From a virus, in the IMG/VR virus record IMGVR_UViG_3300022856_000003: DNA of 64,000 bases. One strand, written 5' to 3'. The position numbers and the translations under genes were made by a program. Position 1 is the stretch's first letter, and the number at the start of each line of letters is the position of its first letter. The notes below the pieces were generated by a model, which saw only the letters and a list, made by a program, of their open reading frames with translations, was not told the origin of the DNA and ran no database searches. Shown in pieces: positions 725-62,169 of the stretch.

Positions 725-1300
725 ATGAGATTTCTACGACTAGGTCTACTGATTGAGCGCATCGGCAAGCTGATGCAGAACCTCTCTGCGGACGAGAAGC
801 TCGCCAACGCTCTGACCGCACAATCCGCCGACCACTGCACCGTGGGTGGTGAAGTCACGACTCGAGGTTTCATCGTTGAGATGGGGATGCGCGGATGGAC
901 TCCCGAGTACGTCGGCGAGATGGTCCACTTCCGTCGCAACGGTTGGACCCCTGATGGTCACCCACTCGATAAGGTTCCGTACCTCGACGACAAGGGTCGG
1001 CCCGTGGTCCCACATGAGTGCTGCGGCTGCATCTGCCAGGTGTGTGTCGAGGGTCACAACTCGTATGAAGACCTCGGGCACGACGCCCGATGTCTCGAGC
1101 ACGCCGACCAGCGACGCCAGACGATCACGGCCGAAGTGTCACCGCCATACTGGATTGAAGCTCCGTGTTGCGGATGCATCTGTCAGGTCTGCCAGGCTGT
1201 CCATAGCGGAAACACGAGGATCCACTCGCCCAGGTGTGTGGACCACCGAGCGAAATCGATTTCGCATGTCGACACACCCGCAACCTCCCTGGAGAAGTAG
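725..1300 (+). CDS. hypothetical protein with two tandem CCGCICQVC-H-H-RC-H putative metal-binding repeats
   Basis: Internal repeat HECCGCICQVC..H..RCLEH / APCCGCICQVC..H..RCVDH; ATGA overlap with upstream gene. Confidence 0.7.
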   Translation: MRFLRLGLLIERIGKLMQNLSADEKLANALTAQSADHCTVGGEVTTRGFIVEMGMRGWTPEYVGEMVHFRRNGWTPDGHPLDKVPYLDDKGRPVVPHECCGCICQVCVEGHNSYEDLGHDARCLEHADQRRQTITAEVSPPYWIEAPCCGCICQVCQAVHSGNTRIHSPRCVDHRAKSISHVDTPATSLEK

Positions 1301-1825
1301 ATGTCCCCTCTCGACCCGCCCAGCCTGTCTTCCGCCGAAGTCCGACTCATCAGCCGAGTCCGTCGGCTCAAGAGGCTGATGGAACTCGATGCACCCACCG
1401 TCATCCAGACCTCGGAGTCTGGGCTCGTCAGCATCGCGGTGGCCAACTGTGTCGAGGCCCCATCGCCGGGTGCGTTTCGGCTGTCGACCTACGACGAGTC
1501 TCGAGACAACCTGGGCCTCGCCCCTGCCGGTCCCGCGGTGAAGCGCGGTGAGACGACCATCACGATGGACGACCGGATGTTCGACTCGATGGTCGCCTGG
1601 AACTACCCGCTCGCCAAGTACGAGATCGTTCCCGACAACCTGATGAACAACGGGGACACCTGGACGATGGATGTGGTGGCCAACACGGGTGACGACATCG
1701 TCGAGTTCGACCGGTGGCAAGAAGGCGAGAAGGTGATGGGGATCGGCATCTACCAGATCTGCGCCGACCTCATCCGCATGGGCAAGATGCCTGCGGGCAA
1801 AGTCATCATCAACGCGAGCTGGTAG
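1301..1825 (+). CDS. hypothetical protein
   Basis: TAG-ATG junction with GGAG SD, typical codon usage. Confidence 0.7.
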   Translation: MSPLDPPSLSSAEVRLISRVRRLKRLMELDAPTVIQTSESGLVSIAVANCVEAPSPGAFRLSTYDESRDNLGLAPAGPAVKRGETTITMDDRMFDSMVAWNYPLAKYEIVPDNLMNNGDTWTMDVVANTGDDIVEFDRWQEGEKVMGIGIYQICADLIRMGKMPAGKVIINASW

Positions 1826-1829
1826 TCCG

Positions 1830-2294
1830 ATGTACGGATGTGTTGACCTCTGTTTTGGTGTGAAGCTCTACGGCATGGACACGATGCGAGAGTCCTTCGA
1901 CGTATCGAAGTGGAAAGACGCGATGATCGACATCGCGAAGTACGAGTTCGACGGAGTCGACACTCTCGAGACCGCTGAGTTCGGAAACCCTGACGAGTGG
2001 GACGACGACGGCATCAAGATGTTCGTCGAAAACTGGCTCGGTGAGTCTAACTACGTCGAGAGTCCCTACACGGGCTCCGGTACGCCGCCGATGTACATCG
2101 GCATCCAGATCGGTAGCTGGCCCTACTTCCATTCAGGAGGAGAAGACGGGTTCATCGCCGCTGCGCGGAATGACCGACCCCTGACCGACGAGGAGTCAGG
2201 TAGGTGGATGTCCAAAGTGCCCGCAGAGGTACGCGACATCCTCACCAGGCACGGACACATCCCAGGGTTCGTCTGGGGAGCCAGTACAAGCTGA
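1830..2294 (+). CDS. hypothetical protein
   Basis: Fits the tiled + strand gene array. Confidence 0.65.
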   Translation: MYGCVDLCFGVKLYGMDTMRESFDVSKWKDAMIDIAKYEFDGVDTLETAEFGNPDEWDDDGIKMFVENWLGESNYVESPYTGSGTPPMYIGIQIGSWPYFHSGGEDGFIAAARNDRPLTDEESGRWMSKVPAEVRDILTRHGHIPGFVWGASTS

Positions 2295-2632
2295 TGCTCG
2301 AACGACTCAAAGCCTACGCCGCCGACACGAAGCCGCTCCTGGAGCAGGTCATCGCCTTCCGCCAACAGACCCTTGGAGGGTGGAACGTCACCAACGGCTC
2401 TGTGCGAGTCTTCTTCAAGAAGGGTGACGTGAGTGTTATCTACAGCGAGCATGGGGTCGGATGGAGGCTCGAGTCTGTGCGGATGGTCGACGACGGACAT
2501 GTTCTATGGCGGATGAATGGAGACACGTTGAAGGTGACTTCGACGAGAAGTTCCAGGGTCGTTCCGCTCGGGGATGGGTTCGTTCGGTCCTGGCGTGACT
2601 GTGACGAAGTGTTCTACGAGTGACCCGATTGC

Positions 2633-2698
2633 TTGACATGCCTGCGATGTTCAACTAGAATGTGGTTGGAACGAAATCGATTGCGCCGAAGGTCGGCG
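2633..2698 (+). promoter_or_regulatory. sigma70-like promoter plus AAGGT-loop leader hairpin
   Basis: TTGACA-17-TAGAAT; CGCCG-AAGGT-CGGCG at 2684-2698; palindrome copy at 2672. Confidence 0.75.
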
Positions 2699-3181
2699 AG
2701 GAAGAATCCAGAATGATCAATCTCCACAACCTGTTCATCGCCCGTGACGGAATCGTAGCCGCTCTGGCCGAAGGTCTGTCTCCCGTGCAGGCTCTCAAGA
2801 AGGTCCGCGCGACGAAGGCTGGAAAGACCATCAGCGTGACGACCCTGATCCGCATGGCTCGGCGGCTCCAGGCATGAACCCTTCCCCCTCAATCGCTGAG
2901 TCTGCCGTCTCAATGGCGTGCCTGTTCAAGGCCGTTGGCGACCGAGAGCTTTCAATCACGAAGGCATCGGTCGCCACTGGTGGAACCAGCGCGATGGGAA
3001 AACCCTGGGCGAAACGCCATGTTGATCGGCTCGTCCGAGCAGGCATTCTGACCGTCCGTCAGAAGGGGAAGTGTCGCTGGGTTCGCCCCGCGAACCACGC
3101 CGAGTTCATGGAGTGGGCGAAGACGCAGGAGACGTATGAGTACACCGAGTCCATCGGCCAAAGCTGGGCGGAACACATCTC

Positions 3182-3775
3182 ATGAGCCGCCTCAAGACCA
3201 TCGTGGAGATCGAGAAGATCCTCCGCGACCATGTGACCAACGGGGAAGTGGACGCCGATGGCGATCCGAGGAACTATGGTCATCCGCTCCATGACAGTAA
3301 GGCCCGCTATGCGTGGCTCGTCGCTGCGGACGCCTTGAAGCCTCATCCGATCCCCGCTGCCATGCCGACCCGCGAGCGCATCAAGGAGCTGGAGGTCGTG
3401 TGGTGGCCTCTAACGATGGGGAAGACGAACAGGTCCGAGGATTGGACCGAGACCCTCCTAGCCGTTCTGACGGCAGAGGAGGCGGTCTGGGGCCTGCGTT
3501 TCGAGTCCTACCTCGATGTCTCAGGCTGGGACCGCTCCGATAGCGGTGACGTTGAGTACTCGCTCAACGCTGGGAATAGCGACAAGCACGATGAGGATCC
3601 TGTCGTCAGCCTCGTCATCAAGCGCGACATCTCATCCTGGGAGTGGTTCGTTCATTCCGACTCCTCATGGGGCGAGAAAATCGCTCAAGGCACCGGAAAC
3701 CTAGCCATCGAAGCCATCGTCGCGGGTCTCTGGGCCTTCCGAACCGCATGTGACGCACGAGGAGTGGAGCTGTGA
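3182..3775 (+). CDS. hypothetical protein
   Basis: Coupled ORF. Confidence 0.65.
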   Translation: MSRLKTIVEIEKILRDHVTNGEVDADGDPRNYGHPLHDSKARYAWLVAADALKPHPIPAAMPTRERIKELEVVWWPLTMGKTNRSEDWTETLLAVLTAEEAVWGLRFESYLDVSGWDRSDSGDVEYSLNAGNSDKHDEDPVVSLVIKRDISSWEWFVHSDSSWGEKIAQGTGNLAIEAIVAGLWAFRTACDARGVEL

Positions 3776-6510: not shown

Positions 6511-6813
6511 ATGACCGTCGAACTGAGCAAAGAAGACTTCAACATGCTCATCGTCGGCGCAGTCCGCTACGCCATCGGACGACAGACCTACGTCGTCCAG
6601 GAGACAGTGGATCTGGTGCTACGACACAGAGATTCCATCACCAGGGGCCGCTGCCAGATCATCGTGAGGTCCATCCGCGAGGAGGAGAAACGGAGCCGTC
6701 TAGGAGGAAGACCCGACACGTACCGGTGGACCCGTCTCGCCGAGGCACTCGAGCAGCCACCAAGACCGTCGGACCCTGTCGAAGCCGCGCTGGATGACAT
6801 CGCGTTCTCTTGA
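6511..6813 (+). CDS. hypothetical phage protein with acidic C-terminal tag
   Basis: AVRYAIGRQTY motif; ends PPRPSDPVEAALDDIAFS. Confidence 0.7.
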   Translation: MTVELSKEDFNMLIVGAVRYAIGRQTYVVQETVDLVLRHRDSITRGRCQIIVRSIREEEKRSRLGGRPDTYRWTRLAEALEQPPRPSDPVEAALDDIAFS

Positions 6814-6838
6814 CAACGGTAACCACTTCGACTAGAGT
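6810..6838 (+). promoter_or_regulatory. sigma70-like promoter
   Basis: TTGACA-17-TAGAGT; the -35 overlaps the TGA stop of the upstream gene. Confidence 0.65.
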
Positions 6839-7428: not shown

Positions 7429-7731
7429 ACATGGTTGGACCAAAAGAGCGGTACTCGAAGCCCATCACGATCTGGTGAGCCGTGGTCGTAGGGTATGGCC
7501 CGAAAGGGACGTGCCCGACCGGCAGGTTGCCGGTATTCAGTGTCGAGACCGAAGAGGAAGCTGAGGCGTTGATCCAGCTCGCCTGTTCGACGAACTACGA
7601 AGGCGAGTACATCGCGAAGGAACTGGCGGAAGAGCAGACCATGGAGAACCTCCAGGCATTCAGCGACCGACTTGCCGACATCCACGAGAGGTTCTTCGCT
7701 CCACGGTGCCCCGCGAAATCGATTTCACCGG

Positions 7732-8166: not shown

Positions 8167-8673
8167 ATGAGCACAGACCCACGACCATCCTGGCTACTCG
8201 ACGCAAAGCTCAAGGTAGAGCTGGTGCCGCAGACATCCTGGGGCAACAACCTCCGATCCCTCCTGCGTCGAAAGGACTGGGATAACCTGCGCCGAGAGGC
8301 GTACATGAAGGCTGGTCACGTCTGCGAGATCTGCGGAGGCAAGGGTCGAAAGCACCCCGTCGAATGCCACGAGATCTGGGAGTACGACGACGATGCGAAG
8401 ATCCAGAAGCTCACTGGGCTCATCGCTCTCTGTCCCGCGTGTCACCGCTGCAAGCACCCCGGTATGGCCGCAAGGATCGGCCTGATCGCCAACGTGTTCG
8501 CTCAGCTCGAGAAAGTGAATGGATGGACCTGGGACCAGGCCCGCGTGAGTCTCGAGCTTGCCTTTGAACTTCACCGACTCCGCTCGACCGTCCCCTGGAC
8601 CGTCGACACGGACTGGCTCGGACTCGACGAGCAAGGTGTGACCTTGCTTCGCATGGGGACTTCCGGTGAGTGA
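8167..8673 (+). CDS. HNH endonuclease family protein
   Basis: CEICG...ECHEIWEY...LIALCPACHRCKH (beta-beta-alpha-Me / Zn pattern). Confidence 0.8.
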   Translation: MSTDPRPSWLLDAKLKVELVPQTSWGNNLRSLLRRKDWDNLRREAYMKAGHVCEICGGKGRKHPVECHEIWEYDDDAKIQKLTGLIALCPACHRCKHPGMAARIGLIANVFAQLEKVNGWTWDQARVSLELAFELHRLRSTVPWTVDTDWLGLDEQGVTLLRMGTSGE

Positions 8674-9742
8674 TCGTTCCCAAGGCGAGTTCTGGGTCCA
8701 CCGGAAGTACGCCGAACTCGTCAGCTACATGGTCGACTGCGGCGGATGCGAAGCCGAGAGCGAGGAGGAATGGCGTCTCCTGGTGTTCGAGCCCGCCTAC
8801 GGCCAGTTACACGGGGATGCCAACGACGTAGAAGATACCACCGTTGTCCACATCACCCAGGGAGAGATGGCCGGAGGTGGCTACTCGGTCTCCGAGAGCA
8901 TGGCTGGTCTAGGCATCCCGTTCCAGCACTACGGGAGCCGCCACTACATGTGGGCTGAGTACCGTAGTTGCTCTCTCGGCAAGCCAGGAGACTGGGGAAA
9001 CTACGACTACGAGGGCGGGTACTGCCTGGAGTTCGGCAACGACTCAAAGCCTATCCCTAAGCATGTGGAGGTCATTGGGGCCTTTCATCACAGATGGCTC
9101 AAGATCGGACGCATCAACCTGGGGGCTTACCCCTATGTCCCGAAAGACGGCAGCGTGGGTGCGTGGTGGTTGAAGTACGTGGTTGAGAGGAAGGTCGAGG
9201 AGGCTGAGGCGGCTGAGAACAGTGTCGTCAAGGACATGTCGACTCAGATGGCTCAAGAGATCGACGCCGACATCATCAAGACGTTGAACGCTGGTTTCCA
9301 GAAAACAACGTCCGCGCTCGATGACGCGCAAGAGAAGCTCAAGCAGTTGAAGCTCAAGAAGGACCTCCTTGCATGGTCGGCGAAGAAGAAGGCCGCGAAG
9401 AAGAAGGCTAAGCTCGAGAAGCTCAAGGCGAAGAAGAAGCTCGTTGAGAAGGTCGTTGAGACGGCCATGGTCCAGAGCATGAAGAAGGACTTCAATATCG
9501 ACTACTTCTGCGCTTCCTGTGAGGATCTCGGTTGCTTCCAGTGCGCGGAGAGTGAGCCTGAATCTTCCTGTACCGAATGCGACGGATCGGGTTGCTACGA
9601 ATGTGAGGATGTCGTCGGGAAGTTCTTGCCGGATGCTGAGAACGGCACGGTCTGTAAGAAGCATGGCCTCTACGCCTGCTTTTCATGTGTTCCTGGCGCA
9701 GTCGAGCCTGATGTTCTGGACATCATCTACAACACGGACTGA
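8666..9742 (+). CDS. multidomain hypothetical protein (Lys-rich coiled coil, three CxxC..CxxC units, acidic tag)
   Basis: AKKKAAKKKAK; CASC..CFQC, CTEC..CYEC, CKKH..CFSC; ends EPDVLDIIYNTD. Confidence 0.7.
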   Translation: MSDRSQGEFWVHRKYAELVSYMVDCGGCEAESEEEWRLLVFEPAYGQLHGDANDVEDTTVVHITQGEMAGGGYSVSESMAGLGIPFQHYGSRHYMWAEYRSCSLGKPGDWGNYDYEGGYCLEFGNDSKPIPKHVEVIGAFHHRWLKIGRINLGAYPYVPKDGSVGAWWLKYVVERKVEEAEAAENSVVKDMSTQMAQEIDADIIKTLNAGFQKTTSALDDAQEKLKQLKLKKDLLAWSAKKKAAKKKAKLEKLKAKKKLVEKVVETAMVQSMKKDFNIDYFCASCEDLGCFQCAESEPESSCTECDGSGCYECEDVVGKFLPDAENGTVCKKHGLYACFSCVPGAVEPDVLDIIYNTD

Positions 9743-9768
9743 AATCGATTTCGCAGGACGCCGTCGCG

Positions 9769-9832
9769 TTGCTACGCGCGACCCGTTGTGATACTCTATC
9801 GATGTTCAAACGAATGCCCGTCAAGGTGACGG
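9769..9832 (+). promoter_or_regulatory. extended -10 promoter plus AAGGT-loop hairpin
   Basis: TTGCTA-17-TACTCT with TGn; TGTTCA at 9803; CCGTC-AAGGT-GACGG at 9818-9832. Confidence 0.7.
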
Positions 9833-12031: not shown

Positions 12032-12601
12032 ATGAGGATCGGAATCATCGGGGCAAAAGGTCACGGCAAGGACTCAATCGCTGACATCCTGATCGACGAG
12101 AACGGCTTCCGAAAGGTCGCGTTCGCTGATCCCATGAAGGAGATGCTTCACGTTGGCCTTGGCATCTCTCGCAAGATTCTCTACGGGCCTGCCGACGTGA
12201 AGGAACGGGTTCTCCCGGAGTTCGGTGTGTCGCCGCGACACATGTTGGTGACCCTGGGGACCGAGTGGGGCCGAAGGCTCATTCATGAAGACCTATGGAC
12301 CAACATCGCGATGCTCAGGACCCTCCCGCTCTATGAGCTTGAGCATGGTGTTCAGTCTTGGGTAGCTTCCGACGTGCGCTTTATCAACGAGGCAAAGGCT
12401 CTCGTAGAGGCTGGATTCGTCATGTTCAAGGTGGAGCGACCTGGATACGTCACGAAGACGGGCGAGCACGCAGGGCATCAGTCGGAGACGGAGCTGAACG
12501 ACATCGAGTACGACGTGTTGATCAGGAACGATTCCACACTGGAAGATCTGCACGAGAAGGCTAGGCGAATACTCAAGGCCATGCGACACGCCAACCCTTG
12601 A
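12032..12601 (+). CDS. deoxynucleoside monophosphate kinase (T4 gp1-like)
   Basis: IGIIGAKGHGKDS P-loop, AFADPMK, LGTEWGR, SDVRFINE, HQSE. Confidence 0.9.
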   Translation: MRIGIIGAKGHGKDSIADILIDENGFRKVAFADPMKEMLHVGLGISRKILYGPADVKERVLPEFGVSPRHMLVTLGTEWGRRLIHEDLWTNIAMLRTLPLYELEHGVQSWVASDVRFINEAKALVEAGFVMFKVERPGYVTKTGEHAGHQSETELNDIEYDVLIRNDSTLEDLHEKARRILKAMRHANP

Positions 12602-12661
12602 CTCGCTTTGATTGTTCAGCTACAGTAATTGCGTGACCTCGATCTCCCGCAAGGTGCGGGA
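12598..12661 (+). promoter_or_regulatory. sigma70-like promoter plus AAGGT-loop hairpin
   Basis: TTGACT-17-TACAGT; TCCCGC-AAGGT-GCGGGA at 12645-12661. Confidence 0.75.
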
Positions 12662-13076: not shown

Positions 13077-13640
13077 ATGCTTCCTGAACCACTCAGAACG
13101 CTCCAGGATCAGAAGAGGTTCCACGAGGAGATCAAGCGCGCATATCGATGGCTCGATATTGATGTGGACCCGAAGGCGGCATGCCTCTACTGGGCGATGG
13201 CCACGCTGATCGCGGCTGAACGAAATCGATTGCGCGAAGACTTCGGCTGGGACTTCCAGCTCCAAGGCGGCACAGCTTCATTCGTTCGCCTTGCTGACGA
13301 AGACGACGACGGGCATGAGGACACGCACAACGCCTTCTCCTACGTCTTCGAGGATAGCCAGGTCACTCGAACCGCTATCCGAGAAGGTCGGCTCCCAGAG
13401 ATGCACGTCTGGGTCGCCTGTGCGGTCAACGGCGTCATCGTCGATGTGACCACTGGCTTTCAGCCCGCCCAGTGCCTTGCTCGCGGGAAGATGCCATGGA
13501 CGGCTCCAAAGCCTCCACCGTTCGTCATGTTCGGTGTGGACGATCCGCCGTCCGGTCTCTTCTACGCACCCAGTAGACCCGGAACAATCCTGGCGCATGC
13601 CTTCGCAGAAGACGCGATGCGCGAGAGGAAGAATCGATGA
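13077..13640 (+). CDS. hypothetical protein (possible Cys-His-Asp transglutaminase-like triad)
   Basis: ACLYW...MHVWV...IVDVT. Confidence 0.45.
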   Translation: MLPEPLRTLQDQKRFHEEIKRAYRWLDIDVDPKAACLYWAMATLIAAERNRLREDFGWDFQLQGGTASFVRLADEDDDGHEDTHNAFSYVFEDSQVTRTAIREGRLPEMHVWVACAVNGVIVDVTTGFQPAQCLARGKMPWTAPKPPPFVMFGVDDPPSGLFYAPSRPGTILAHAFAEDAMRERKNR

Positions 13641-15528: not shown

Positions 15529-16164
15529 ATGACGCCAGAAATTATTCCAGGTTGCTTCGTTCAGTCGACCCAGACTTCAAAGTCAAAGGGTCATCTGCCG
15601 ATGGGCGTGGTAGGGAAGGTCATCAAGATGGCCAACTCGAGCTACGCCGAGAAGTGGTGGGTCCAGGACATGGACGGCACGAGCTACTGGCCGATGACGA
15701 AGTATCTGGCAGTTCTGGACGATCCTGGAGTGTGCTTCTCAACGCCCTGGGAAATCAGCCAGGGCGAGAGCGAGACGGGGCCTGGGAAGCGGCTCATCTT
15801 CACGATGAAGATCTGCTCCGTAAGTCGGTCCGGTGCGGCGGCGAAGGTTCGTATTTCCGGTATGAACGCATTCAAAGAGATCTGGCTTCCGGTAAGTCAG
15901 GTGCCTGCCCTTCAAATCACGGTTCGTGGTGCCACGGTCAATGCGTGGGTTCCAAACTGGCTCGTCGCGAAGAAGGGCATAGAGAAGTACGCCCAGCTCG
16001 CCCCGCCCACGGCACAGTCTGACGAAATCGATTTCATCGAGATGTCGAAAGCCCGTCCTGTGAAACCGACACTCAGGGAGTTCCTCGAGCCCTATCTTCA
16101 TCCTGCACAGATGGTGATCACGACAGTGGACGTTGAGTCCTGCCTGGACTTCATGTGCGAGTAG
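15529..16164 (+). CDS. hypothetical protein with C-terminal LDF-type tag
   Basis: Ends TVDVESCLDFMCE. Confidence 0.7.
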   Translation: MTPEIIPGCFVQSTQTSKSKGHLPMGVVGKVIKMANSSYAEKWWVQDMDGTSYWPMTKYLAVLDDPGVCFSTPWEISQGESETGPGKRLIFTMKICSVSRSGAAAKVRISGMNAFKEIWLPVSQVPALQITVRGATVNAWVPNWLVAKKGIEKYAQLAPPTAQSDEIDFIEMSKARPVKPTLREFLEPYLHPAQMVITTVDVESCLDFMCE

Positions 16165-17087: not shown

Positions 17088-17165
17088 TTGACAACGGCAA
17101 CCGAACCGATATAATGGGTGTGCGGGACATCCACCGCATCCACCGATTCTCTGCAAGGTGCAGAG
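17088..17165 (+). promoter_or_regulatory. consensus sigma70 promoter plus AAGGT-loop hairpin
   Basis: TTGACA-16-TATAAT; CTCTGC-AAGGT-GCAGAG at 17149-17165. Confidence 0.85.
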
Positions 17166-22439: not shown

Positions 22440-22958
22440 GTGATCGGAGACGACTCAATCCTCGACCTGATACTCGAGGAGATGGCCGCTCAGGACGCAG
22501 CCGAGGACAAGGTCTTCGTGGACGCGACCAGGCTCTCACTCATCCATGTGCTCATGGCTCATCGCCTAAAGAAGGCGGATCGTGCTTCCAACTACAGGTG
22601 GAAGAAAGCCCAGAAGATCAAGAATGCTCGGAGGAAAGCTCGGCACGATCTACTTCAGTTTCACAGGGCAAATCTCCTTCGTGCGATGCAGAGTCCAGCT
22701 CAACGACTCGTCGATGTGTTGGCTGCTCGGCGTGACCAGATTCAGCGCGAAATCGATTTCGCCAAAAAGCTCAAGACCCCAAAAATCCTCCAGGTTCTCC
22801 TGATGGACCACAATGGGGTCATGGTCCCTATCCCTGGGTTCCTAGTGGATGCATCCGTCGACTACGGGCTCGACTCGCATTCTTTGAAGCTCCGCATTCG
22901 AGGAGTATCGACAGGTGCGAACTGGGAAAAGTGCCTGGACATGTTGGCTGGCAAATGA
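22440..22958 (+). CDS. hypothetical protein with tag-like peptides at both termini
   Basis: Starts MIGDDSILDLILEEM; ends NWEKCLDMLAGK. Confidence 0.6.
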   Translation: MIGDDSILDLILEEMAAQDAAEDKVFVDATRLSLIHVLMAHRLKKADRASNYRWKKAQKIKNARRKARHDLLQFHRANLLRAMQSPAQRLVDVLAARRDQIQREIDFAKKLKTPKILQVLLMDHNGVMVPIPGFLVDASVDYGLDSHSLKLRIRGVSTGANWEKCLDMLAGK

Positions 22959-28321: not shown

Positions 28322-28550
28322 TCGTGACCTCAGAGTTTGAGGACATTCTCGCTGGCGCAGTCGGTGGTACACGAAATCGATTTCGCGATGTGAAGTCCCC
28401 ACTCCCTGGTGGCGAAGTCCAGGAAATCGGGATGCTTTTCATCAACCGCGCGCTCGACGCAAGGCTCTCGCGGATAGCCAATGATCGTGGTACAAATGTG
28501 TCCCAGGTCCTCACAGCAGCCCTCGACTTGCTCGAGTTGGAGCCGAAGTA

Positions 28551-30774: not shown

Positions 30775-30969
30775 ATGAAGTACCGCTGTTGCAACTGTTC
30801 CCACATCGACACCAATGGCTCGAAGTGCTCGAAGTGCGGGTCCAACTCGCTCGAGACCCTCTCGCCCGCCAACCAGCCCACTGCTGAGAGCGCACCCCAG
30901 GGTGGTCCACAGCTTCTCTGCGAAGTGCCCGACGATCGAAAGCCCGTAGGCAACCAGATCAACGGGTGA
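30775..30969 (+). CDS. small Zn-ribbon protein
   Basis: CCNC...CSKCGS; AGGAGG SD. Confidence 0.65.
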   Translation: MKYRCCNCSHIDTNGSKCSKCGSNSLETLSPANQPTAESAPQGGPQLLCEVPDDRKPVGNQING

Positions 30970-30990
30970 AATCGATTTCGCGGAGAAGAC

Positions 30991-34932: not shown

Positions 34933-35477
34933 CGACTCGGCGACACGCTTTGAAGCTGAGTGCCGCTTTCGCGGCAGCAGCCATGCTCGGACCGAAATCG
35001 ATTTCGTCTCAGGTGGTGACACCGGACGTTCACGACGAAAAGTGGATCCGCGACACGCTCACGGACATAGCCCGTTCGTTTAACGGCAGATCAGGTGAAC
35101 GAGCAGCAGGAATCCTAATAGGAGCCATGATGCGTCTTCGCCGCTTGTGGCCGTGGCACGACTGGACTTGTATCTACGATGAGGCTCGTGACGTGGCTCT
35201 CGTGGACACTCCAGACGGTGTGATCGAGGTCAAGACCTTCATCCAGACATTCGACCGGCACTTCTGCTTTCACGGTCTGGATGCTGCTGCTGAGTTGTGT
35301 TCCTGCATAGCGATGAAGTCCTGGTACCAGTGGCGCATGGAGCTTCTCGGCGAGACCCTCGAGCAATGTGCTGATGAGTGGGCAAAGCAGGAGCTTCGCG
35401 TCCATCCACACTGGGGTCAGGGTGAGCGCAACTGGGCCGCTATCCAGAGAGAACTCGACTTCAAGGGCTGGTCATGA
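34929..35477 (+). CDS. hypothetical protein with twin-arginine-like N-terminus
   Basis: MTTRRHALKLSAAFAAAAMLG. Confidence 0.55.
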   Translation: MTTRRHALKLSAAFAAAAMLGPKSISSQVVTPDVHDEKWIRDTLTDIARSFNGRSGERAAGILIGAMMRLRRLWPWHDWTCIYDEARDVALVDTPDGVIEVKTFIQTFDRHFCFHGLDAAAELCSCIAMKSWYQWRMELLGETLEQCADEWAKQELRVHPHWGQGERNWAAIQRELDFKGWS

Positions 35478-35974: not shown

Positions 35975-36142
35975 ATGAACCACAAGAGAAAAAGACCAAA
36001 GAACCGACGTGGCGGATGCCTTCTGTGTAAGCCGCACAAAGCCAATGGTTGCAAGCACGGGAACCCGACTAGACAAGAAGCAAAAGCTCGCGCTAGCGAG
36101 GCTCAGCAGATTCGCGAAATCGATTTCGCATCCCTTGATTGA
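35975..36142 (+). CDS. small basic CxxC peptide
   Basis: MNHKRKRPKNRRGGCLLCKPHK; GGAG SD. Confidence 0.65.
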   Translation: MNHKRKRPKNRRGGCLLCKPHKANGCKHGNPTRQEAKARASEAQQIREIDFASLD

Positions 36143-38612: not shown

Positions 38613-38930
38613 ATGAGCAGCGTCTCAGCAGCGTCCCTTCTCGACGACGAACCCTCGGTGCAGGTGAAGCGGGTCGTCAAGATCGCTCCTTGCGGTGGCT
38701 GTGGGAACTTCCTCCTCCGCGACAAGATGTGGGCGATGAACACGAAGATCTACAGCCCGGATGACAAGGCGGAAACCGTCATCCGCGTTCGGGTCTGCGA
38801 GACTTGCGCCACTGGCGAGATTGATGATCTCCGAGAGATCGAGTGGGACAACGCATCCATGCGAGTCCTCAAGGACGACGAGTCCCTCGAAGAGATCAAC
38901 AAGGCTCTGGACAACGTGATCGAGGGATGA
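38613..38930 (+). CDS. Zn-ribbon protein with acidic tag
   Basis: CGGC..CETC; ends EEINKALDNVIEG. Confidence 0.6.
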   Translation: MSSVSAASLLDDEPSVQVKRVVKIAPCGGCGNFLLRDKMWAMNTKIYSPDDKAETVIRVRVCETCATGEIDDLREIEWDNASMRVLKDDESLEEINKALDNVIEG

Positions 38931-39259
38931 AATCGATTTCGCAGGAGGTCTGCGTGGACAAGGACGAGAGCTACTTGAAAGACTTCAATCCGCTCACTGC
39001 GGAAGGCCCACCATGCCCACGATGTGGAGCTGAGTGCGAGTTGAAGCCAAGGGCTCGTGGGATTCGAGCGTCGTTTGTCTGGAAGTGCCCAAAGAAACCC
39101 ACCGAACATGGTGTGATGCGGCTCTCTCAAGGCAAGGACATCCTTGAACGCCTCAGACATCAGCATGCCGACAGAGTCGCGGCTGAGAACGAAGTGATGA
39201 TTCAGGAGTTCGACCAGGACGACATGGGCGCTATCGGCGAGATTCTCGCTGAACTCTGA
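38927..39259 (+). CDS. Zn-ribbon protein with acidic tag
   Basis: CPRC..WKC..H; ends DDMGAIGEILAEL. Confidence 0.6.
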   Translation: MKSISQEVCVDKDESYLKDFNPLTAEGPPCPRCGAECELKPRARGIRASFVWKCPKKPTEHGVMRLSQGKDILERLRHQHADRVAAENEVMIQEFDQDDMGAIGEILAEL

Positions 39260-41052: not shown

Positions 41053-41062
41053 GCAAAGACAC

Positions 41063-41138: not shown

Positions 41139-41741
41139 ATGGAGGTCAAGGTGACCCAGGGTGACGACAAGATTGCAATCTTCGGGAAGATCGTCGAATC
41201 TTCTGTTGACGGCCCCGGAACCCGCGCGGTGATTCACTTCGCAGGCTGTTCCATCGGGTGCCCCGGATGTTTCAACCCTCTGACCCATGATGCGACCGCG
41301 CCAGGCGTCTGGTACGGCTCCGCGAAATCGATTGCGCGGAGGATGCTCGCGGTATCCGATTCCGTGACCATCTCCGGTGGCGAGCCCACCGACCAGCTCG
41401 AGTCCCTGTTCGACCTCTGCGTGGAGCTGAGGGCAGAAGGCTGCAACGACATCGTCCTGTTCACGGGCAAGAAGGTGTCTGTCCATGAGAGGAAGCCTCT
41501 CTGGAACAAGCTCATCAGAGATTGTCTTGTGGATGTCGTAGTCGACGGACCCTTCAAGCAAGGGAACCTCGCCATCATCGGGCTCCGTGGCTCCGACAAT
41601 CAGGAAGTCATCCCGATCACCGAGCGGTGGACCGTGGCCGACTTCAACGAGCGGGAAGTCGAAATCACGCTCGACTTCTCCAGCGGTGGCCTGCTAATCA
41701 CGGGCTTCCCTGACCAGGAACTTCTCGACCTGCTGGCGTGA
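41139..41741 (+). CDS. NrdG-like radical SAM (4Fe-4S single cluster) protein
   Basis: VDGPGTRAVIHFAGCSIGCPGCFNP (CxxxCxxC), VTISGGEP, DVVVDGPF, RGSDNQ. Confidence 0.88.
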   Translation: MEVKVTQGDDKIAIFGKIVESSVDGPGTRAVIHFAGCSIGCPGCFNPLTHDATAPGVWYGSAKSIARRMLAVSDSVTISGGEPTDQLESLFDLCVELRAEGCNDIVLFTGKKVSVHERKPLWNKLIRDCLVDVVVDGPFKQGNLAIIGLRGSDNQEVIPITERWTVADFNEREVEITLDFSSGGLLITGFPDQELLDLLA

Positions 41742-41765: not shown

Positions 41766-41814
41766 GACGAAGGAAACCGCTCCAACGGTTACCACCGAAA
41801 CCACCGAGGCAAAA

Positions 41815-42012: not shown

Positions 42013-42078
42013 CGACCCTTCAAACCCTCCTCGGAGCGGGCAAGGTGCCTGCGAAGATCGAACCCCCGGAGCCCGACA

Positions 42079-44877: not shown

Positions 44878-45344
44878 TGGCGGAAGTCACCCGCTACTAC
44901 GACGTGATGGATCTGCCCGACGAGATCTACAACGCTCTCAACGTCATGGGCCACTATCTCAGTGGGGAAGGCGTGTCGAGCGGTCTCATCAAGGTTGTGG
45001 ATAGCGATGTTCCGGCCTTCGTCGAGAACGGCATCTGGTTCATCGACATGCGGTGGGCCATCCAGGCGTCCAAAGGAGCGACAGCCATGGTCCTGACCAT
45101 CTGTCTCGGAGCGATGTCCAGGGATCAGTTCGAGGTTGAGGCACACAAGGTCTTCGACCGCACGCTCAAAGCGCAGCTCTCTCTAGCCAATGATCTCGTG
45201 AAGTTGCAGGAAGTCACGGACAACCGGGTCAAGCGCATCAAAGACCAGGCCATGCGCGACCTCAAGAGCTACCTGCTCGACAATGTCGTAGTGACACAGG
45301 ACGACGTGGACACGGCCCTAGACGACATCTTGAGGACGTTCTAA
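44874..45344 (+). CDS. hypothetical protein with acidic tag
   Basis: Ends VVTQDDVDTALDDILRTF. Confidence 0.7.
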   Translation: MMAEVTRYYDVMDLPDEIYNALNVMGHYLSGEGVSSGLIKVVDSDVPAFVENGIWFIDMRWAIQASKGATAMVLTICLGAMSRDQFEVEAHKVFDRTLKAQLSLANDLVKLQEVTDNRVKRIKDQAMRDLKSYLLDNVVVTQDDVDTALDDILRTF

Positions 45345-46294
45345 TGACCGACCTCGACGAAGCAATCGAAGTGGTGGCGAACCTAGCCAATCGGACCCAC
45401 ACACCGACCATCGCTGACGGCATACGCATCGGTGCTCATGCTGTCCGAAGGGCGCTGGAGGAGGTGTTCGAGAAGAAAGTGGTGCTAAATATCGGAGGTG
45501 ATAGCCCTGCTGATGAGATGTTCGGGACGAGACGCGAAGGGCTCGAGAACCTTGCAGCCACCCTTGCCGACAAGGACCGTGATTCTCCCATCCCACACAG
45601 CGAAATCGATTTCGCCAGTCTCAAGTTCGAGGACAAAACTCACCTCGACGATGACGAGAGTAGGACGCTCACTCAGATGGCCTTCTTCATCTGGGGAGAC
45701 CATTGGCACGGCTCGAATACCTCATGGCTCCAGATCGCTGATCTGCCGCGCAAGGGGTTCGCCATCTACGCCACCGAGGCTGGTCGACCTCTGGTCGTCA
45801 TCGACCCGCGATGGCTGACTCCTGGTTCGTTCACTGGCGATGGTCCTGGCGCACGGCAGTTCACTGCCATCCTCCTGGCTCTACCCAGTGCGAACGCCAA
45901 GCACATCCTCAATCTGTCTCTCGAGCGTTTGTTCGGCTTTGCATCCTCGGTGAACCGCAAGGAGAGTGAGTACAAGGGCGAACTCGACAAGGAGTACGCC
46001 AGGAAGGAACTCGATCTCGCCTCCGGGTTCGCTGACAAGGTAGAGCAGGCCCATGCCACAGCACTCGAACGCACATTGAAGGCTGAGAGGAACTCGATCA
46101 ACCGTTGCTTGGTCGCTGAATCGGAATGCAACGAGAAGGTCCTTCTGGCCGAAGCGGAGGTCCGAGATATGAAGATCTGGTGCGAGACGGTTCGTGAGCG
46201 TGCCTCGGCAGATGCGCGGCAAATCCTCGAAGATCAAGTCGTCCTCGAACGCGACATCGACTCTGTACTCGAGTCCATCATGGAGACCCTGTGA
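45344..46294 (+). CDS. coiled-coil hypothetical protein with acidic tag
   Basis: Ends VVLERDIDSVLESIMETL. Confidence 0.7.
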   Translation: MTDLDEAIEVVANLANRTHTPTIADGIRIGAHAVRRALEEVFEKKVVLNIGGDSPADEMFGTRREGLENLAATLADKDRDSPIPHSEIDFASLKFEDKTHLDDDESRTLTQMAFFIWGDHWHGSNTSWLQIADLPRKGFAIYATEAGRPLVVIDPRWLTPGSFTGDGPGARQFTAILLALPSANAKHILNLSLERLFGFASSVNRKESEYKGELDKEYARKELDLASGFADKVEQAHATALERTLKAERNSINRCLVAESECNEKVLLAEAEVRDMKIWCETVRERASADARQILEDQVVLERDIDSVLESIMETL

Positions 46295-46917: not shown

Positions 46918-47693
46918 GATGGAAAGAAGCCTCACAGTGAATCTGTCCTTCTCCCCACAGGAAATCCTGGATGCACTCCGACAGGCATACCCGGATGAGA
47001 ACATTCCCGATCACGCCTCCATCAAGGTTGGTCGAGGTAGTCGCCCGTCCGATAAGAAGAAGACGATTGTCGGCGAGACTGAATCAAAGCGAGCCATCTA
47101 TGCGTCATTGGACTGCAAGGTCCATTGGGACAAGCGATGAGGAAGCTAGGCCGCTGGTATCACAGCAACGGTGGAGTTGACCCCGATCAGTGCGGCGTGA
47201 CAGTCAGTTGGCGTCGTCAACCAGGCCATTCAGGTCTCGGGTTTGGGAACCGAAAAGGCTGGCCTCAGCGATCAGGCCGCAACGCCTTCGCCCCCGTGCT
47301 GGCCACTCCGCTCCACGGCTCCATTGGAATCATGAGCCCAGACTGGGTGGACGCTGACGGTGGACATCCGATGAGTCCCCCGAGCGACTACTACGACTTC
47401 GGACATCCCGAGTTGAAGTGGCAGTCCGAGATGCGCTCCGCTCCCGATGGCGCGGTCGAAGCATTCTGCAACGAAGCTGACCGTCTGGCTGTTGAAGCTG
47501 GATGGACACTCACCGAGGAGGAGTAGAGATGAGCACGAGAACGACCATCACCGCAGAGGTCCAAGCGGTCCTCGAAGCTGGAACCATCACTGACGGCGTT
47601 CGCCAAAGGTTGACCAACGGGACTGGTCTCGCGAAATCGATTGCGCTAGAGTGAGGCCACAGGGACGGTCCCTGTCCATAAGCAAGAGGCGAT

Positions 47694-59004: not shown

Positions 59005-59148
59005 ATGAGTGTTTTCAGTGTTCGACGAGCCCTGAGCGGATACATCAAGCACGCCAAGGCGTATGGACACCCGAAGAAGGGTGTCGGCAAGCGCAATGCC
59101 AGCAAGGCCCGTCGCCGTGTCGGCAAGGCCCTGGCCGCAGAAGGCTGA
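59005..59148 (+). CDS. small basic protein (47 aa, not in the supplied ORF track)
   Basis: GGAGGAG SD; MSVFSVRRALSGYIKHAKAYGHPKKGVGKRNASKARRRVGKALAAEG. Confidence 0.6.
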   Translation: MSVFSVRRALSGYIKHAKAYGHPKKGVGKRNASKARRRVGKALAAEG

Positions 59149-59386
59149 AATCGATTTCGCGATGGAGGTTTGATGTTTCTTTACAAGGTGACAGGTGAGG
59201 ACCTGACCGAGTACGGAGGAGTTGCTGTCGTCATTGCCGAAACTGAGGCTGATGCGTCCGTTTTGGTGACCAAGGAGTGCTCCGAGTTTTGCGAGGATCC
59301 TCGTCCACCAAAGGTTGAGTACATCGGCACTGCCTCATTCCACCTCGGGAAAGAATCGAAAATCCTTGTGGTCGAGGCCAACAGTT

Positions 59387-61005: not shown

Positions 61006-61007
61006 GT

Positions 61008-61036
61008 TTGCTTTCTCGTTTGTTCAGTGCTAGCTT
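61008..61036 (+). promoter_or_regulatory. extended -10 promoter
   Basis: TTGCTT-17-TAGCTT (TGn) with TGTTCAG in the spacer. Confidence 0.5.
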
Positions 61037-61126
61037 CTGTCTCAGGTGCAGGGCACGGAACGCGCCATCCGTGACCAATTTCGCACCATTAGGCGCACCC
61101 AATACGAGAAGATCAGAGGTACCGAC

Positions 61127-62050
61127 ATGACCGCAGGATGGGCATCAACTGGCTATGACCAGATTGAGGAAGACAACAAGCAGCACGAGGCCGGTGAATA
61201 CGACGGCAAAATCCGGGAGTTCTGGACGAACCCCGAGCAGACCAAGCGCATCGTCATCGTCGATGACGCGCCCTTCGGTTTCTGGGCTCACAGCCTCTAC
61301 AACCTCGGTGTCAAGGGTGTCAGCCCGATCTGCCTCGACCGCAACCCGGGTCTGAGCGAGCAGTTCGGATCCTGCCCGTTCTGCGCGCAGAACAAGCTGT
61401 TCAAGGAGTCCAAGGGTGCGGCGGGTACGGAGATGTGGCCGAGCTACGTCGCCTACATCACAGTCATCGACTGCGGCGCGGTGAACATCCACCCGACGAC
61501 GAAGGCTCTCTCGCTCCAGGGGTGGGTCAACGACAAGGACCGCGAGTACAACTTCGACCGGAAGATCCTCCCCCTCAAGAAGGGTGGAAAGGACAAGCCT
61601 GGTCTGCTCAAGAAGGTCCAGCGCCTCCGTGACAAGAAGGGTGGTTCGCTCGTCGGCTGCGTCTTCGACCTCTACCGAGGCGGCAAGAAGGAGGAGCGCC
61701 CAGGCACCGAGTGGGAGTTCGTCACCAAGATGGACGTGACCACCCTCGAAGCCCTCAAGGAGGGCCTCAAGGGTCTCGACGGGATCAACCCCGACACGCA
61801 CCCTGCAATGATCGACGATGTCGTCAAGGAGAACGGGGTGGTCGACTACATGGACCACTTCCAGCCGCAGTCGGCATCCGCTCTGTCGCAGTTGTTCCTC
61901 GGTGGCGGTGGTGGGAAGGCCACGGCGAACAAGGCCCCGGCTGGTGGGTACGGCACGCCCGACCCCTCTGCTGACGGCGACACTGCACCGAAGCAGCCCC
62001 CTGCTGAGGTCAACACCGAGAACATCGACGACGAGGACATTCCCTTCTAG
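61127..62050 (+). CDS. single-stranded DNA-binding protein (gp32-like)
   Basis: H..C..CPFC putative Zn site, Gly/Pro linker, acidic tail NIDDEDIPF. Confidence 0.8.
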   Translation: MTAGWASTGYDQIEEDNKQHEAGEYDGKIREFWTNPEQTKRIVIVDDAPFGFWAHSLYNLGVKGVSPICLDRNPGLSEQFGSCPFCAQNKLFKESKGAAGTEMWPSYVAYITVIDCGAVNIHPTTKALSLQGWVNDKDREYNFDRKILPLKKGGKDKPGLLKKVQRLRDKKGGSLVGCVFDLYRGGKKEERPGTEWEFVTKMDVTTLEALKEGLKGLDGINPDTHPAMIDDVVKENGVVDYMDHFQPQSASALSQLFLGGGGGKATANKAPAGGYGTPDPSADGDTAPKQPPAEVNTENIDDEDIPF

Positions 62051-62054
62051 GGAT

Positions 62055-62145
62055 CGGATGGTTGTCGAGGTGAACGGCAGTCCGGGGAAAGCCCGGTGAC
62101 TGATGGGCTGGAAAAGGCGACGCCCCCTCGACAACTTCCCGTCCG
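62055..62145 (+). ncRNA. candidate structured RNA (multi-stem junction)
   Basis: GTTGTCGAGG/CCTCGACAAC 10-bp stem, outer CGGATG/CGTCCG, inner CAGTCCGGG-GAAAG-CCCGGTGACTG. Confidence 0.5.
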
Positions 62146-62169
62146 CGAAATCGATTTCATGAGGATGAG

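What the first reader, a model, noticed from the sequence alone, without database searches (positions are those of the whole stretch)
1251..62159. 19 copies of the palindrome YGAAATCGATTKCR spread about every 3 kb, regardless of reading frame
Seen in sequence: 14 perfect GAAATCGATTTC cores and 5 single-mismatch copies (coordinates in features). They occur mid-gene in all three frames (translated as EIDF, KSIS or RNRF), overlap stop codons (9740, 30967, 38928, 59146) and sit in intergenic or leader DNA (2672, 53810, 62146). A rough chance expectation for this AT-rich 12-mer in 64 kb at about 60% GC is on the order of 0.001 copies. All mismatches fall at one symmetric position, as expected for a dimeric protein site. 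Established knowledge: frame-independent dispersed palindromes are typical of chromosome-organising sites (parS, Noc NBS, SlmA SBS, matS), but this sequence matches none of those consensus sequences. Inference: a phage genome-organisation, segregation, packaging or self-marking site. The central ATCGAT could be a methylation target.
Basis: partly seen in the sequence, partly recalled or inferred. Interest (0 to 1): 0.82.

Follow-up and report, generated by a model that had tools for sequence, protein, structure and literature searches.

The report
Evenly spaced phage palindrome array
A 144-kb uncultured phage carries one 12-16-base palindrome about every 3 kb, kept by selection on the DNA itself at conserved and evenly spaced positions; it is most likely a lattice of docking sites for the phage's own ParB/KorB/Noc-type DNA-binding proteins, though binding and purpose are untested.

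Summary
The window holds 19 copies of G[A/C]AATCGATT[T/G]C, 14 of them perfect, against about 0.2 expected by shuffling and 0.002-0.02 by Markov models. Synonymous-codon shuffling gives 0.5 intragenic copies against 10 seen.

New here:
- The core extends to a 16-bp palindrome.
- Sites favour gene boundaries (P about 5e-5).
- Spacing is more even than chance. In three relatives it is 2.0-3.3 kb (CV 0.11-0.16).
- Sites sit at orthologous positions in phages whose proteins are only 40-65% identical.
- All copies within one genome share that lineage's variant of the motif.
- Half-sites vary independently and the RNA hairpins are weak, so this is a double-stranded DNA site for a paired protein.

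No regulator lies in the window. Elsewhere the genome encodes a ParB/Noc/KorB-family protein and a partner with a ParB-type DNA-binding fold. These are the only non-enzyme genes shared, in the parts I held, with two distant phages that carry related arrays. Many relatives have a site 40-80 nt upstream of parB.

Best reading (about 50%): loading or binding sites for this ParB-like module, coating or organising the whole chromosome. The central ATCGAT is not conserved among relatives, which argues against a methylation target.

This scan has already noted similar evenly spaced palindrome arrays in other phages.

The parts
1252..1263 (.). site, perfect core; inside gene 725-1300, 37 nt before its stop
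2673..2684 (.). site, GAAATCGATTGC variant; intergenic, about +5 to +16 downstream of a sigma-70-like promoter (TTGACA-17-TAGAAT at 2633-2661)
7715..7726 (.). site, perfect; in the last 25 nt of a weakly supported 56-aa ORF
9741..9752 (.). site, perfect; overlaps the TGA stop of gene 8666-9742; 16 nt upstream of a -35-like TTGCTA followed by 17 nt and TACTCT
13222..13233 (.). site, variant; deep inside gene 13077-13640
16024..16035 (.). site, perfect; inside gene 15529-16164 (read as EIDF)
22749..22760 (.). site, perfect; inside gene 22440-22958
28373..28384 (.). site, perfect; inside gene 28324-28551
30968..30979 (.). site, perfect; overlaps the stop of gene 30775-30969; 11 nt (holding GGAG) before the next start
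34994..35005 (.). site, perfect; intergenic under my gene model
36116..36127 (.). site, perfect; intergenic, 7 nt upstream of a -35-like TTGATT followed by 17 nt and TACACT
38929..38940 (.). site, perfect; overlaps the stop of gene 38613-38930, 13 nt before the next start; orthologous to L118 position 530
41324..41335 (.). site, variant; inside the radical-SAM activase-like gene 41151-41741; same codon position in L118 (2734) and L115 (489), and the encoded residue follows each lineage's motif (K/Q/H)
45602..45613 (.). site, perfect; inside gene 45344-46294
47633..47644 (.). site, variant; 49 nt upstream of the ThyX gene start
53247..53258 (.). site, GCAATCGATTTC variant; inside a 72-aa ORF
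53811..53822 (.). site, perfect; intergenic; orthologous to L118 8655, L116 8237 and L115 8730 (before the homologue of gene 53932-54432)
59147..59158 (.). site, perfect; overlaps the stop of ORF 59005-59148, 14 nt before the next start; orthologous to L118 13620, L116 12496 and L120 4304
62147..62158 (.). site, perfect; 11 nt before the start of the ResIII-type helicase gene; same placement in L118 (16334), L116 (15518) and L115 (16967)
63654..63998 (+). 5' part of a MerR-like HTH gene cut by the contig end (38% identical to L190 8822-9286). It is a rival candidate binder and is not detected in the distant array-bearing phages G001 and G002

Best explanation
The palindromes are double-stranded DNA binding sites for a phage-encoded dimeric protein. 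The most likely binder is the phage's ParB/KorB/Noc-family module.

The module has two parts, both outside this window:
- A 261-aa protein with a ParB N-terminal domain and a helical DNA-binding region (P0027, at about 13.3-14.1 kb of the 144-kb contig).
- A 311-aa partner whose confident domain has the fold of the ParB/Noc/KorB DNA-binding domain.

Proposed mechanism (inferred, not shown). Dimers load at each 16-bp site. They either stay there or spread or slide a kilobase or so to each side, so sites about every 2.8-3.4 kb keep the whole chromosome within reach. The sites are wedged into the short gaps between genes where possible and written into codons where not.

The consequence would be genome-wide organisation: KorB-like damping of transcription, or marking or condensing phage DNA for replication or packaging. 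A few sites that touch sigma-70-like promoters could act as ordinary operators.

Shown here: the selection on the DNA, the even spacing, the positional conservation, the concerted change of the motif, and the presence of the ParB-type genes. Inferred: the binding, the spreading and the purpose.
For: (1) The excess is extreme and survives Markov and synonymous-codon controls.

(2) It is a paired-protein DNA site, not a hairpin.
- All variation lies at symmetric positions but on one side at a time.
- All eight sites in the first L115 locus pair a GCACT half with a GCAAT half, in both orientations.
- Predicted RNA hairpins range from 0 to -6.3 kcal/mol, and half are weaker than -2.6.

(3) Spacing is even.
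- Relatives L118, L116 and L115 show CV 0.11-0.16, with P 5e-6 to 3e-4 even against random gene junctions.
- The window shows CV 0.50, P about 0.002.
- Distant contigs G001 and G002 show CV 0.44 and 0.37, P 1e-5 and 2e-4.

(4) Positions are orthologous across 40-65% protein identity, including one intragenic site whose codons follow each lineage's motif.

(5) All copies within a genome share a lineage-specific variant, as expected if they track one trans-acting factor.

(6) The genome encodes ParB-type proteins.
- P0027 matches Noc (E 4e-17), ParB and KorB by profile and by fold.
- The partner's residues 15-147 align to the DNA-binding domains of Spo0J-parS (Z 10.9), ParB, Noc-NBS (Z 9.6; 112 of 116 residues) and KorB-operator (Z 7.7).

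(7) Linkage of sites to the ParB-like genes.
- Strict sites are 6.7 times denser in 49 IMG/VR loci with this ParB subfamily than in 67 control phage loci.
- Array-bearing phages fall in one ParB clade.
- Of the 167 proteins I could query (64-kb window, the 20-kb L191 contig, part of L190), only five have homologues in both G001 (26 sites) and G002 (14 sites): DnaB, a helicase, the large terminase and these two ParB-like genes.
- A site lies 40-80 nt upstream of parB in at least 11 loci, including this genome.

(8) KorB loads at a 16-bp palindrome and reaches promoters 1.5 kb away (PMC11790492). That is about half the spacing seen here.
Against: - No binding data exist.
- The ParB nucleotide-binding signatures are altered: GGEHRW in place of GERRxR, and QKFxTVRLN in place of ENLQR. 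CTP-driven sliding is therefore uncertain.
- A sister clade of phages has both ParB-like genes but essentially none of these sites: 0, 1, 0 and 2 copies in 109-168 kb. Those phages carry only a few other palindromes. The genes alone therefore do not predict a dense array.
- Array presence also tracks overall phage relatedness, so any lineage-specific factor would fit.
- About 40% of this genome was never seen by me and may encode other regulators.
- No ParA was found in G001-G003.
- The ParB DNA-binding region of P0027 has diverged from the canonical HTH sequence.
Confidence: 0.5

Rival explanations
1. The sites are operators of a different phage-encoded dimeric regulator, such as the MerR-like HTH gene just after the helicase or an unrecognised protein. 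It would act as a global repressor, roadblock or activator, comparable to the stoperators of mycobacteriophage L5 or the conserved inverted repeats of phiC31.
For: - Three window sites touch sigma-70-like promoters (2673, 9741, 36116).
- In relatives the right half-site (TTGCNC) can double as a -35 element 17-18 nt from a -10 hexamer.
- A MerR-like gene is conserved after the helicase in L115, L116 and the window.
- More than 100 window genes have no known family.
Against: - Most sites are not next to promoter-like sequences.
- Even spacing and intragenic conserved sites are not needed for operators.
- The MerR-like gene is not detected in the distant array-bearing contigs G001 and G002. Small proteins diverge fast, so this is weak evidence.
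- No HTH or RHH family was found in the window by Pfam or PHROGs.
Confidence: 0.2
2. The sites bind a host protein, such as a nucleoid-associated or LacI-type factor or a topoisomerase, that the phage recruits or titrates.
For: - The core AANCGNTT resembles the generic centre of LacI-family operators (my recollection, not tested).
- No binder lies in the window.
Against: - The motif changes between closely related phages, and all copies change together. This fits a fast-evolving phage factor better than a conserved host one.
- The host is unknown, and no relative was found in 185,579 species genomes.
Confidence: 0.07
3. The element acts as RNA or single-stranded DNA: a hairpin at gene junctions that directs processing, translation coupling or priming.
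For: - Many copies sit between a stop codon and the next ribosome-binding site, 11-14 nt before the start.
- A KH-domain RNA-binding protein is conserved in the clade.
- Spacing of about 2.8 kb is in the range of lagging-strand fragments.
Against: - Variants are not compensatory: A opposite G in 5 window sites, and C opposite T in all eight sites of the first L115 locus.
- Hairpins are weak or absent in half the sites.
- No U-tract follows.
- Sequence, not structure, is what is conserved.
- The 11-14 nt distance is simply the tightest packing of stop, site and Shine-Dalgarno.
Confidence: 0.06
4. The sites are promoters, for a phage RNA polymerase or a modified host one.
For: - They are AT-rich islands in 59% GC DNA, placed upstream of several replication genes.
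Against: - The element is palindromic, although all 130 genes are on one strand.
- Nothing is conserved beyond 2 nt of flank.
- Several sites are deep inside genes at conserved positions.
- Strong sigma-70-type promoters exist separately.
Confidence: 0.05
5. The sites are short boundary sequences that promote exchange of gene modules by recombination, or targets of a nuclease or methyltransferase (self-marking by modification).
For: - Some insertions and deletions between relatives lie next to sites.
- L118 has two junctions that share the site plus the following 16 nt (28 nt in all).
- Cluster O phages show deletions between their repeats (PMC4351075).
- The genome has HNH and GIY-YIG nucleases, and L115 a Dam-type methylase.
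Against: - Most indel borders lack a site on one side.
- The central ATCGAT is not conserved among relatives.
- A 12-16 bp target is atypical for methyltransferases.
- Even spacing is not explained.
Confidence: 0.06

Closest known systems
KorB and its 16-bp OB operators on plasmid RK2 (PMC11790492)
   Same: - A ParB-family protein without a strictly centromeric role.
- A 16-bp palindrome in many dispersed copies: next to promoters, upstream of them, and far from any promoter.
- Action at up to 1.5 kb by sliding, about half the spacing here.
- The phage protein's model matches KorB structures.
   Different: - Here there are about 43 sites in 144 kb at even spacing, mostly at gene junctions.
- The sequence is different.
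- The CTP-binding signatures are altered.
- The DNA-binding fold also occurs on a separate partner protein.
- No KorA-like or ParA (IncC) partner has been identified.
[quoted passage not shown]
   Same: - Best sequence match of the phage ParB-like protein (E 4e-17).
- A 14-bp palindrome dispersed over a whole replicon.
- The NBS arms (ATTTC...GAAAT) are the same pentamers as here.
   Different: - The arms are in the opposite order here (GAAAT-CG-ATTTC), so the likeness may be chance.
- I did not test for a membrane-targeting helix.
- This is a phage, not a chromosome.
17-bp dyad repeats of Cluster O mycobacteriophages (Corndog; PMC4351075)
   Same: - More than 30 copies of an invariant inverted repeat throughout a phage genome.
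- About one third are intergenic, the rest inside genes, and most are not at promoters.
- The authors predict a dimeric binder.
- Those phages also carry a ParB-like domain gene and glycosyl- and methyltransferases.
   Different: - The sequence is unrelated (7+3+7 design).
- Even spacing and positional conservation were not reported.
- Copies are denser at one genome end.
- Function there is also unknown.
Stoperators of Cluster A mycobacteriophages (L5 gp71; my knowledge, and as discussed in PMC4351075)
   Same: Dozens of repressor sites spread through the genome, mostly in short intergenic gaps, silencing transcription genome-wide.
   Different: Stoperators are asymmetric, oriented with transcription and bound by a monomeric repressor. 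The sites here are palindromic, and their asymmetric variants occur in both orientations.
Dispersed SopB/ParB centromere sites of plasmid-prophages such as N15 (my knowledge)
   Same: A phage-encoded ParB-type protein with several palindromic sites scattered over the phage genome.
   Different: - N15 has only four sites, works with a ParA (SopA) partner and serves plasmid partition.
- No ParA was found in related contigs here, and the lifestyle is unknown.

Membership tests
ParB/KorB/Noc-type binding-site array (parS / OB / NBS class) | 14-16 bp palindromic DNA site present in several dispersed copies on the replicon | tested here: met
   16-bp palindrome; 19 copies in the window and about 43 in the contig
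ParB/KorB/Noc-type binding-site array (parS / OB / NBS class) | The same replicon encodes a ParB-family protein with an N-terminal domain plus a DNA-binding domain | tested here: met
   P0027 (261 aa) lies on the 144,042-bp contig. Pfam ParB_N; profile match to Noc E 4e-17; Foldseek hits to KorB, Noc and ParB over about 210 columns. The partner has a ParB-type DNA-binding fold, Z 9.6-10.9.
ParB/KorB/Noc-type binding-site array (parS / OB / NBS class) | CTP-binding and hydrolysis signatures (GERRxR box; ENLQR box) that make the sliding clamp | tested here: inconclusive
   The alignment shows an invariant GGEHRW, and QKFxTVRLN where ENLQR would be. One arginine and the glutamate/asparagine pair are replaced. 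Nucleotide binding cannot be judged from sequence.
ParB/KorB/Noc-type binding-site array (parS / OB / NBS class) | The protein binds the site | not testable with these tools
The only indirect support is a site 40-80 nt upstream of parB in at least 11 loci.
Classical ParABS partition system | A ParA (Walker-type ATPase) partner gene | tested here: not met
   No CbiA/ParA-family match over the cut-off in related contigs G001-G003, and none in the window by Pfam. The rest of this genome was not searched.
Cluster A stoperators | Asymmetric site in one orientation relative to transcription | tested here: not met
   The site is palindromic. The asymmetric L115 variant occurs in both orientations, 8 to 3.
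Intrinsic terminator or structured RNA element | Stable stem kept by compensatory changes; U-tract for terminators | tested here: not met
   Hairpin energies run from 0 to -6.3 kcal/mol, changes are one-sided, and there is no T-run. The terminator scans do not list the sites.
Sigma-70-type promoter | -35 and -10 hexamers at 16-18 nt in a fixed register with the repeat | tested here: not met
   Nothing is conserved beyond 2 nt of flank. Only 3 of 19 sites adjoin promoter-like hexamers, and at different offsets.
Restriction-modification or methylation target | A short conserved core (here ATCGAT) that is the constant part of the motif | tested here: not met
   The centre varies among relatives while the outer arms persist. 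Another 18 ATCGAT copies occur outside the sites. Methylation itself was not testable.

The most novel reading that the evidence does not exclude
The array is a measured lattice of loading sites for a split ParB system: one protein carries the ParB-type DNA-binding fold, the other the ParB N-terminal clamp domain. Together they coat an entire 144-kb phage chromosome. Selection holds the site spacing (about 2.8 kb ancestrally) at roughly twice the distance one clamp can travel. The coat would serve a job not yet described for ParB proteins in lytic or temperate phages, such as genome-wide transcriptional damping, marking phage DNA for the adjacent terminase, or shielding it from host nucleases.
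Probability: 0.25. Interest if true: 0.8.

Novelty: new variant of a known kind. Interest (0 to 1): 0.62.

Why it matters
Dispersed dyad repeats in phage genomes have been reported (Cluster O mycobacteriophages) but never explained. This case adds four things that make the question testable:
- Selection acts on the spacing itself.
- Sites are held at orthologous positions.
- All copies co-evolve within a genome.
- There is a short list of two ParB-type candidate binders, shared by very distant array-bearing phages.

If the ParB link holds, ParB/KorB-type clamps would have a general role in organising whole phage chromosomes. The spacing would then be a genomic read-out of how far such a clamp acts. 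The motif is also a practical marker for recognising and binning fragments of this uncultured phage group.

Tried and rejected
- Nucleotide search of GenBank phages with the first 20 kb found no match.
- Scanning IMG/VR for the 14-mer gave only scattered single chance hits and no relative.
- A close-relative search with the DnaB protein found nothing in IMG/VR. The profile search found nothing in 185,579 species genomes.
- Distant DnaB relatives in IMG/VR (L121-L123) carry no such array.
- No whole genome is held for the window. The metagenome contig behind L115 could not be searched whole.
- Pfam and PHROGs scans of all 130 window proteins found no HTH, RHH or ParB family.
- A second repeated string after sites 9741 and 36116 (TCGATGTTCAAAC) occurs only twice exactly and is not significant.
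- A scan for imperfect palindromes in the array-less ParB loci gave only noise.
- Whole-contig k-mer analysis of two such phages found different, sparse palindromes.
- A literature search for the motif found nothing, and a search for regularly spaced phage palindromes returned only CRISPR papers. DUF3102 has no informative literature.
- Considered and set aside: primase or Okazaki signals, Chi-like sites, pac sites, topoisomerase IB sites (no CCCTT), LexA boxes (GAAC arms absent).

Full report
**The observation**

The window holds 19 matches to GAAATCGATTTC with at most one mismatch, at exactly the coordinates given. Fourteen are perfect. Dinucleotide-preserving shuffles give 0.19. Markov models of order 1 to 4 predict 0.002-0.016 perfect copies. 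All five variants differ at the symmetric position 2/11. Every AATCGATT octamer in the window belongs to a site. The flanks extend the core to a 16-bp palindrome: C before it in 14/19, GC after it in 15-16/19. Shuffling synonymous codons within genes while keeping the proteins yields 0.54 intragenic copies (maximum 3 in 200 runs) against 10 observed. Neither composition nor codon usage nor the encoded peptides explain the count.

**Setting**

My own gene model places all 130 genes on the + strand, at 91% coding. The genes are mostly small and unknown. They include DnaB, a DnaC-like loader, ligase, ThyX, a radical-SAM activase, an AAA ATPase, a ResIII helicase, dNMP kinase, GroES, and HNH and GIY-YIG nucleases. 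There is no nucleotide match in GenBank phages. The DnaB protein is recorded on a 144,042-bp contig. Offsets given in earlier scan notes place this window at the last 64 kb of that contig and list the same motif across the rest, about 43 copies in all. I confirmed five of those outside coordinates on L191, a near-identical 19.9-kb contig.

**Placement**

- Nine of 19 sites are not fully inside a gene, although only 10% of positions allow that (P 5e-5).
- Twelve of 19 are intergenic or within the last 37 nt of a gene (P 2e-5).
- Four overlap a TGA stop.
- Four lie 11-14 nt before the next start codon, with only the Shine-Dalgarno between. The same tight arrangement recurs in relatives. I read it as the smallest way to fit the site between packed genes, not as a translation signal, because seven sites lie deep inside genes.
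- Three sites touch sigma-70-like promoters at different offsets: 2673 just downstream of one, 9741 and 36116 just upstream. Strong promoters elsewhere have no site.

**Relatives**

Through DnaB homologues I fetched syntenic 21-kb loci from metagenomes: L118 (58% identity), L116 (60%), L115 (52%) and L120 (43%).

- L118 has 8-9 sites of the same motif.
- L116 has 7, mostly with the GC arm or a C in the centre.
- L115 has 8 of a changed form that pairs a GCACT half with a GCAAT half.
- L120 keeps only two.

The sites occupy orthologous places: before the AAA gene, at the same codons of the activase gene, before the homologue of gene 53932, after DnaB, before the homologue of gene 59387, 11-14 nt before the helicase start, and before the RecA-like gene. 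In the activase gene the codons read AKSIA, AQSIA and AHSVA in the three phages. The protein follows each lineage's version of the DNA motif. So the sites are old and held in place, and all copies in a genome change together. That is the signature of co-evolution with one trans-acting factor.

**Spacing**

| Source | Gaps or mean | CV | P |
|---|---|---|---|
| L118 | 2.2-3.1 kb | 0.11 | 5e-6 |
| L115 | 2.0-3.3 kb | 0.14 | 2e-5 |
| L116 | 2.8-4.3 kb | 0.16 | 3e-4 |
| Window | mean 3.4 kb | 0.50 | about 0.002 |
| G001 (whole contig) | mean 3.0 kb | 0.44 | 1e-5 |
| G002 (whole contig) | mean 6.3 kb | 0.37 | 2e-4 |

- The P values for L118, L115 and L116 are against uniform placement. They are similar when sites are drawn only from gene junctions.
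- Many of the window's gaps are near 2.8 or 5.6 kb, where extra gene blocks sit relative to L118.
- Over the whole contig, partly from unchecked notes, the largest gap is 6.7 kb against a median of 13.5 kb expected.

Even spacing is therefore a selected property, clearest in the smaller relatives.

**DNA site or hairpin**

Half-sites vary one side at a time, which would put A opposite G in a stem. All eight sites in the first L115 locus would carry a C-T mismatch. They occur in both orientations (8 to 3 when the three extra L190 sites are counted) although all genes run one way. Predicted RNA hairpins are weak: 0 to -6.3 kcal/mol, and half are weaker than -2.6. No T-run follows. This points to double-stranded DNA read by a dimer.

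**Who binds**

Pfam and PHROGs find no HTH, RHH or ParB protein among the 130 window genes. An earlier first-reader note mentioned a ParB gene far upstream. I reached it independently by walking along L115's contig (L190) and then by homology to this genome (P0027, 261 aa, on the 144,042-bp contig).

- A profile of the family matches Noc (E 4e-17, covering the N-terminal and HTH regions), ParB and KorB.
- An AlphaFold model (pLDDT 80) matches KorB, Noc and ParB over about 210 columns.
- Its nucleotide-binding boxes are altered (GGEHRW; QKFxTVRLN), so clamp behaviour is uncertain.
- The gene just upstream of parB in most relatives is separated from it here by a glycosylation-type operon. It is a 311-aa protein with no Pfam family.
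- That protein's confident domain aligns to the DNA-binding domains of Spo0J-parS (Z 10.9), ParB, Noc-NBS (Z 9.6; 112 of 116 residues) and KorB-operator (Z 7.7).

**Linkage between these genes and the array**

- IMG/VR holds 49 loci with full-length homologues of this ParB. Strict sites are 6.7 times denser there than in 67 control phage loci. The generic form YG[C/A]AA-N4-TT[G/T]CR is 2.5 times denser.
- At least 11 loci, including this genome, have a site 40-80 nt upstream of the parB start. L190 has one 3 nt after its stop.
- On a ParB tree the array-bearing phages form one clade of 14, with two long-branch outliers.
- Whole contigs of the outliers carry 26 copies (G001, 77 kb, with an integrase) and 14 copies (G002, 91 kb) of their own variants, against 1 for the control pattern. 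In G001, 19 of 26 are at gene boundaries, and in G002 7 of 14.
- I queried 167 proteins against those contigs: the window genes, the L191 genes and 13 from L190. Only five have homologues in both: DnaB, the helicase, the large terminase and the two ParB-like genes. The MerR-like gene that follows the helicase in close relatives is not among them.

**Limits of that link**

- A sister clade has both ParB-like genes but none of these sites: 0-2 copies in 109-168 kb, no more than the control. Two such contigs show only six copies each of other repeats, one of them a 20-bp palindrome. ParB-type proteins commonly have lineage-specific sites in very different numbers, so this does not exclude the link. 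It does show that the genes alone do not predict a dense array.
- Array presence also follows general phage relatedness.
- I never saw about 40% of this genome.
- There is no binding evidence of any kind.

**Mechanism**

The best-supported reading is a lattice of binding or loading sites for the phage's ParB-type module.

- KorB of plasmid RK2 loads at a 16-bp palindrome and slides to act up to 1.5 kb away (PMC11790492). Sites every 2.8-3.4 kb would keep every base pair within that range. This would explain why spacing, not only presence, is under selection, and why sites are written into genes where no gap is available.
- No ParA was found in relatives, so classical partition is unlikely.
- The purpose stays open: transcriptional damping, condensation, marking DNA for the adjacent terminase, or protection.

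**Comparison and novelty**

The closest published analogue in a phage is the unexplained 17-bp dyad repeat of Cluster O mycobacteriophages: 34 copies, a predicted dimeric binder, and a ParB-like gene present (PMC4351075). The closest mechanistic models are KorB/OB and Noc/NBS. Earlier follow-ups in this scan reported similar evenly spaced palindrome arrays in other phages and raised the ParB and Cluster O comparisons. This is a further, well-resolved example, not a first. What it adds:
- clear positional conservation;
- concerted motif change within each genome;
- a codon-level demonstration of DNA-level selection;
- a two-gene ParB-type candidate that is shared by very distant array-bearing phages.

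Noticed in passing
window 2633-2661, 6810-6838, 12598-12626, 17088-17115, 22072-22100, 37602-37630, 39279-39307, 43190-43218: Near-consensus sigma-70 promoters (TTGACA, 16-17 nt, TATAAT-like), all on the + strand in short gaps between genes. They suggest host-polymerase transcription of this region in several units.
   Followed up: partly
window 9765-9811 and 36134-36177: Two promoter-like stretches share the tail CT(A)TCGATGTTCAAAC right after the -10 hexamer, each just downstream of a palindrome site. There are only two exact copies, not significant alone.
   Followed up: partly
window 39367-42555: A conserved block (AAA ATPase, radical-SAM/NrdG-like activase, a 65-aa gene whose L115 homologue has a faint DUF2997 hit, DUF1257) is kept in L118, L115 and other relatives. 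Its function in a phage is unclear.
   Followed up: no
window 43273-44877: A 534-aa protein with a weak GHKL (HATPase_c) match has homologues at about 30% identity in many unrelated phages (Vibrio, Pseudomonas, Erwinia), where they are mostly annotated as hypothetical.
   Followed up: no
L191 5222-10459 (same genome, outside the window): parB is the last gene of an operon with WbqC-like, PIG-L deacetylase and other genes, inserted between parB and its usual upstream partner. The operon sits just before the terminase and a T4-type portal. It may modify DNA or the virion.
   Followed up: partly
L118 5872-5899 and 16334-16361: Two gene junctions share the site plus the following 16 nt (Shine-Dalgarno and start codon), 28 nt in all. 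This may reflect copying of a junction cassette or convergence.
   Followed up: no
G002 (L276-L280), whole contig: The G002 variant has an asymmetric centre (TCAC), and 10 of the 12 copies with that centre point the same way on a contig whose genes nearly all run one way. L115/L190 shows 8 of 11. This hints at an orientation preference that a pure palindrome would hide.
   Followed up: partly
G008 (L288-L296) at 10974, 56348, 90847, 101471, 144367, 163425: A sister-clade phage without the array carries six copies of a different palindrome with a CCATATGG core. Five are a perfect 20-mer and one differs by a base. They lie 10-45 kb apart, possibly the site set of its own ParB-type proteins.
   Followed up: partly
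G001 133-633 (- strand): A tyrosine integrase sits at the end of an array-bearing contig that IMG/VR labels a provirus. At least some phages with these arrays are therefore temperate.
   Followed up: partly
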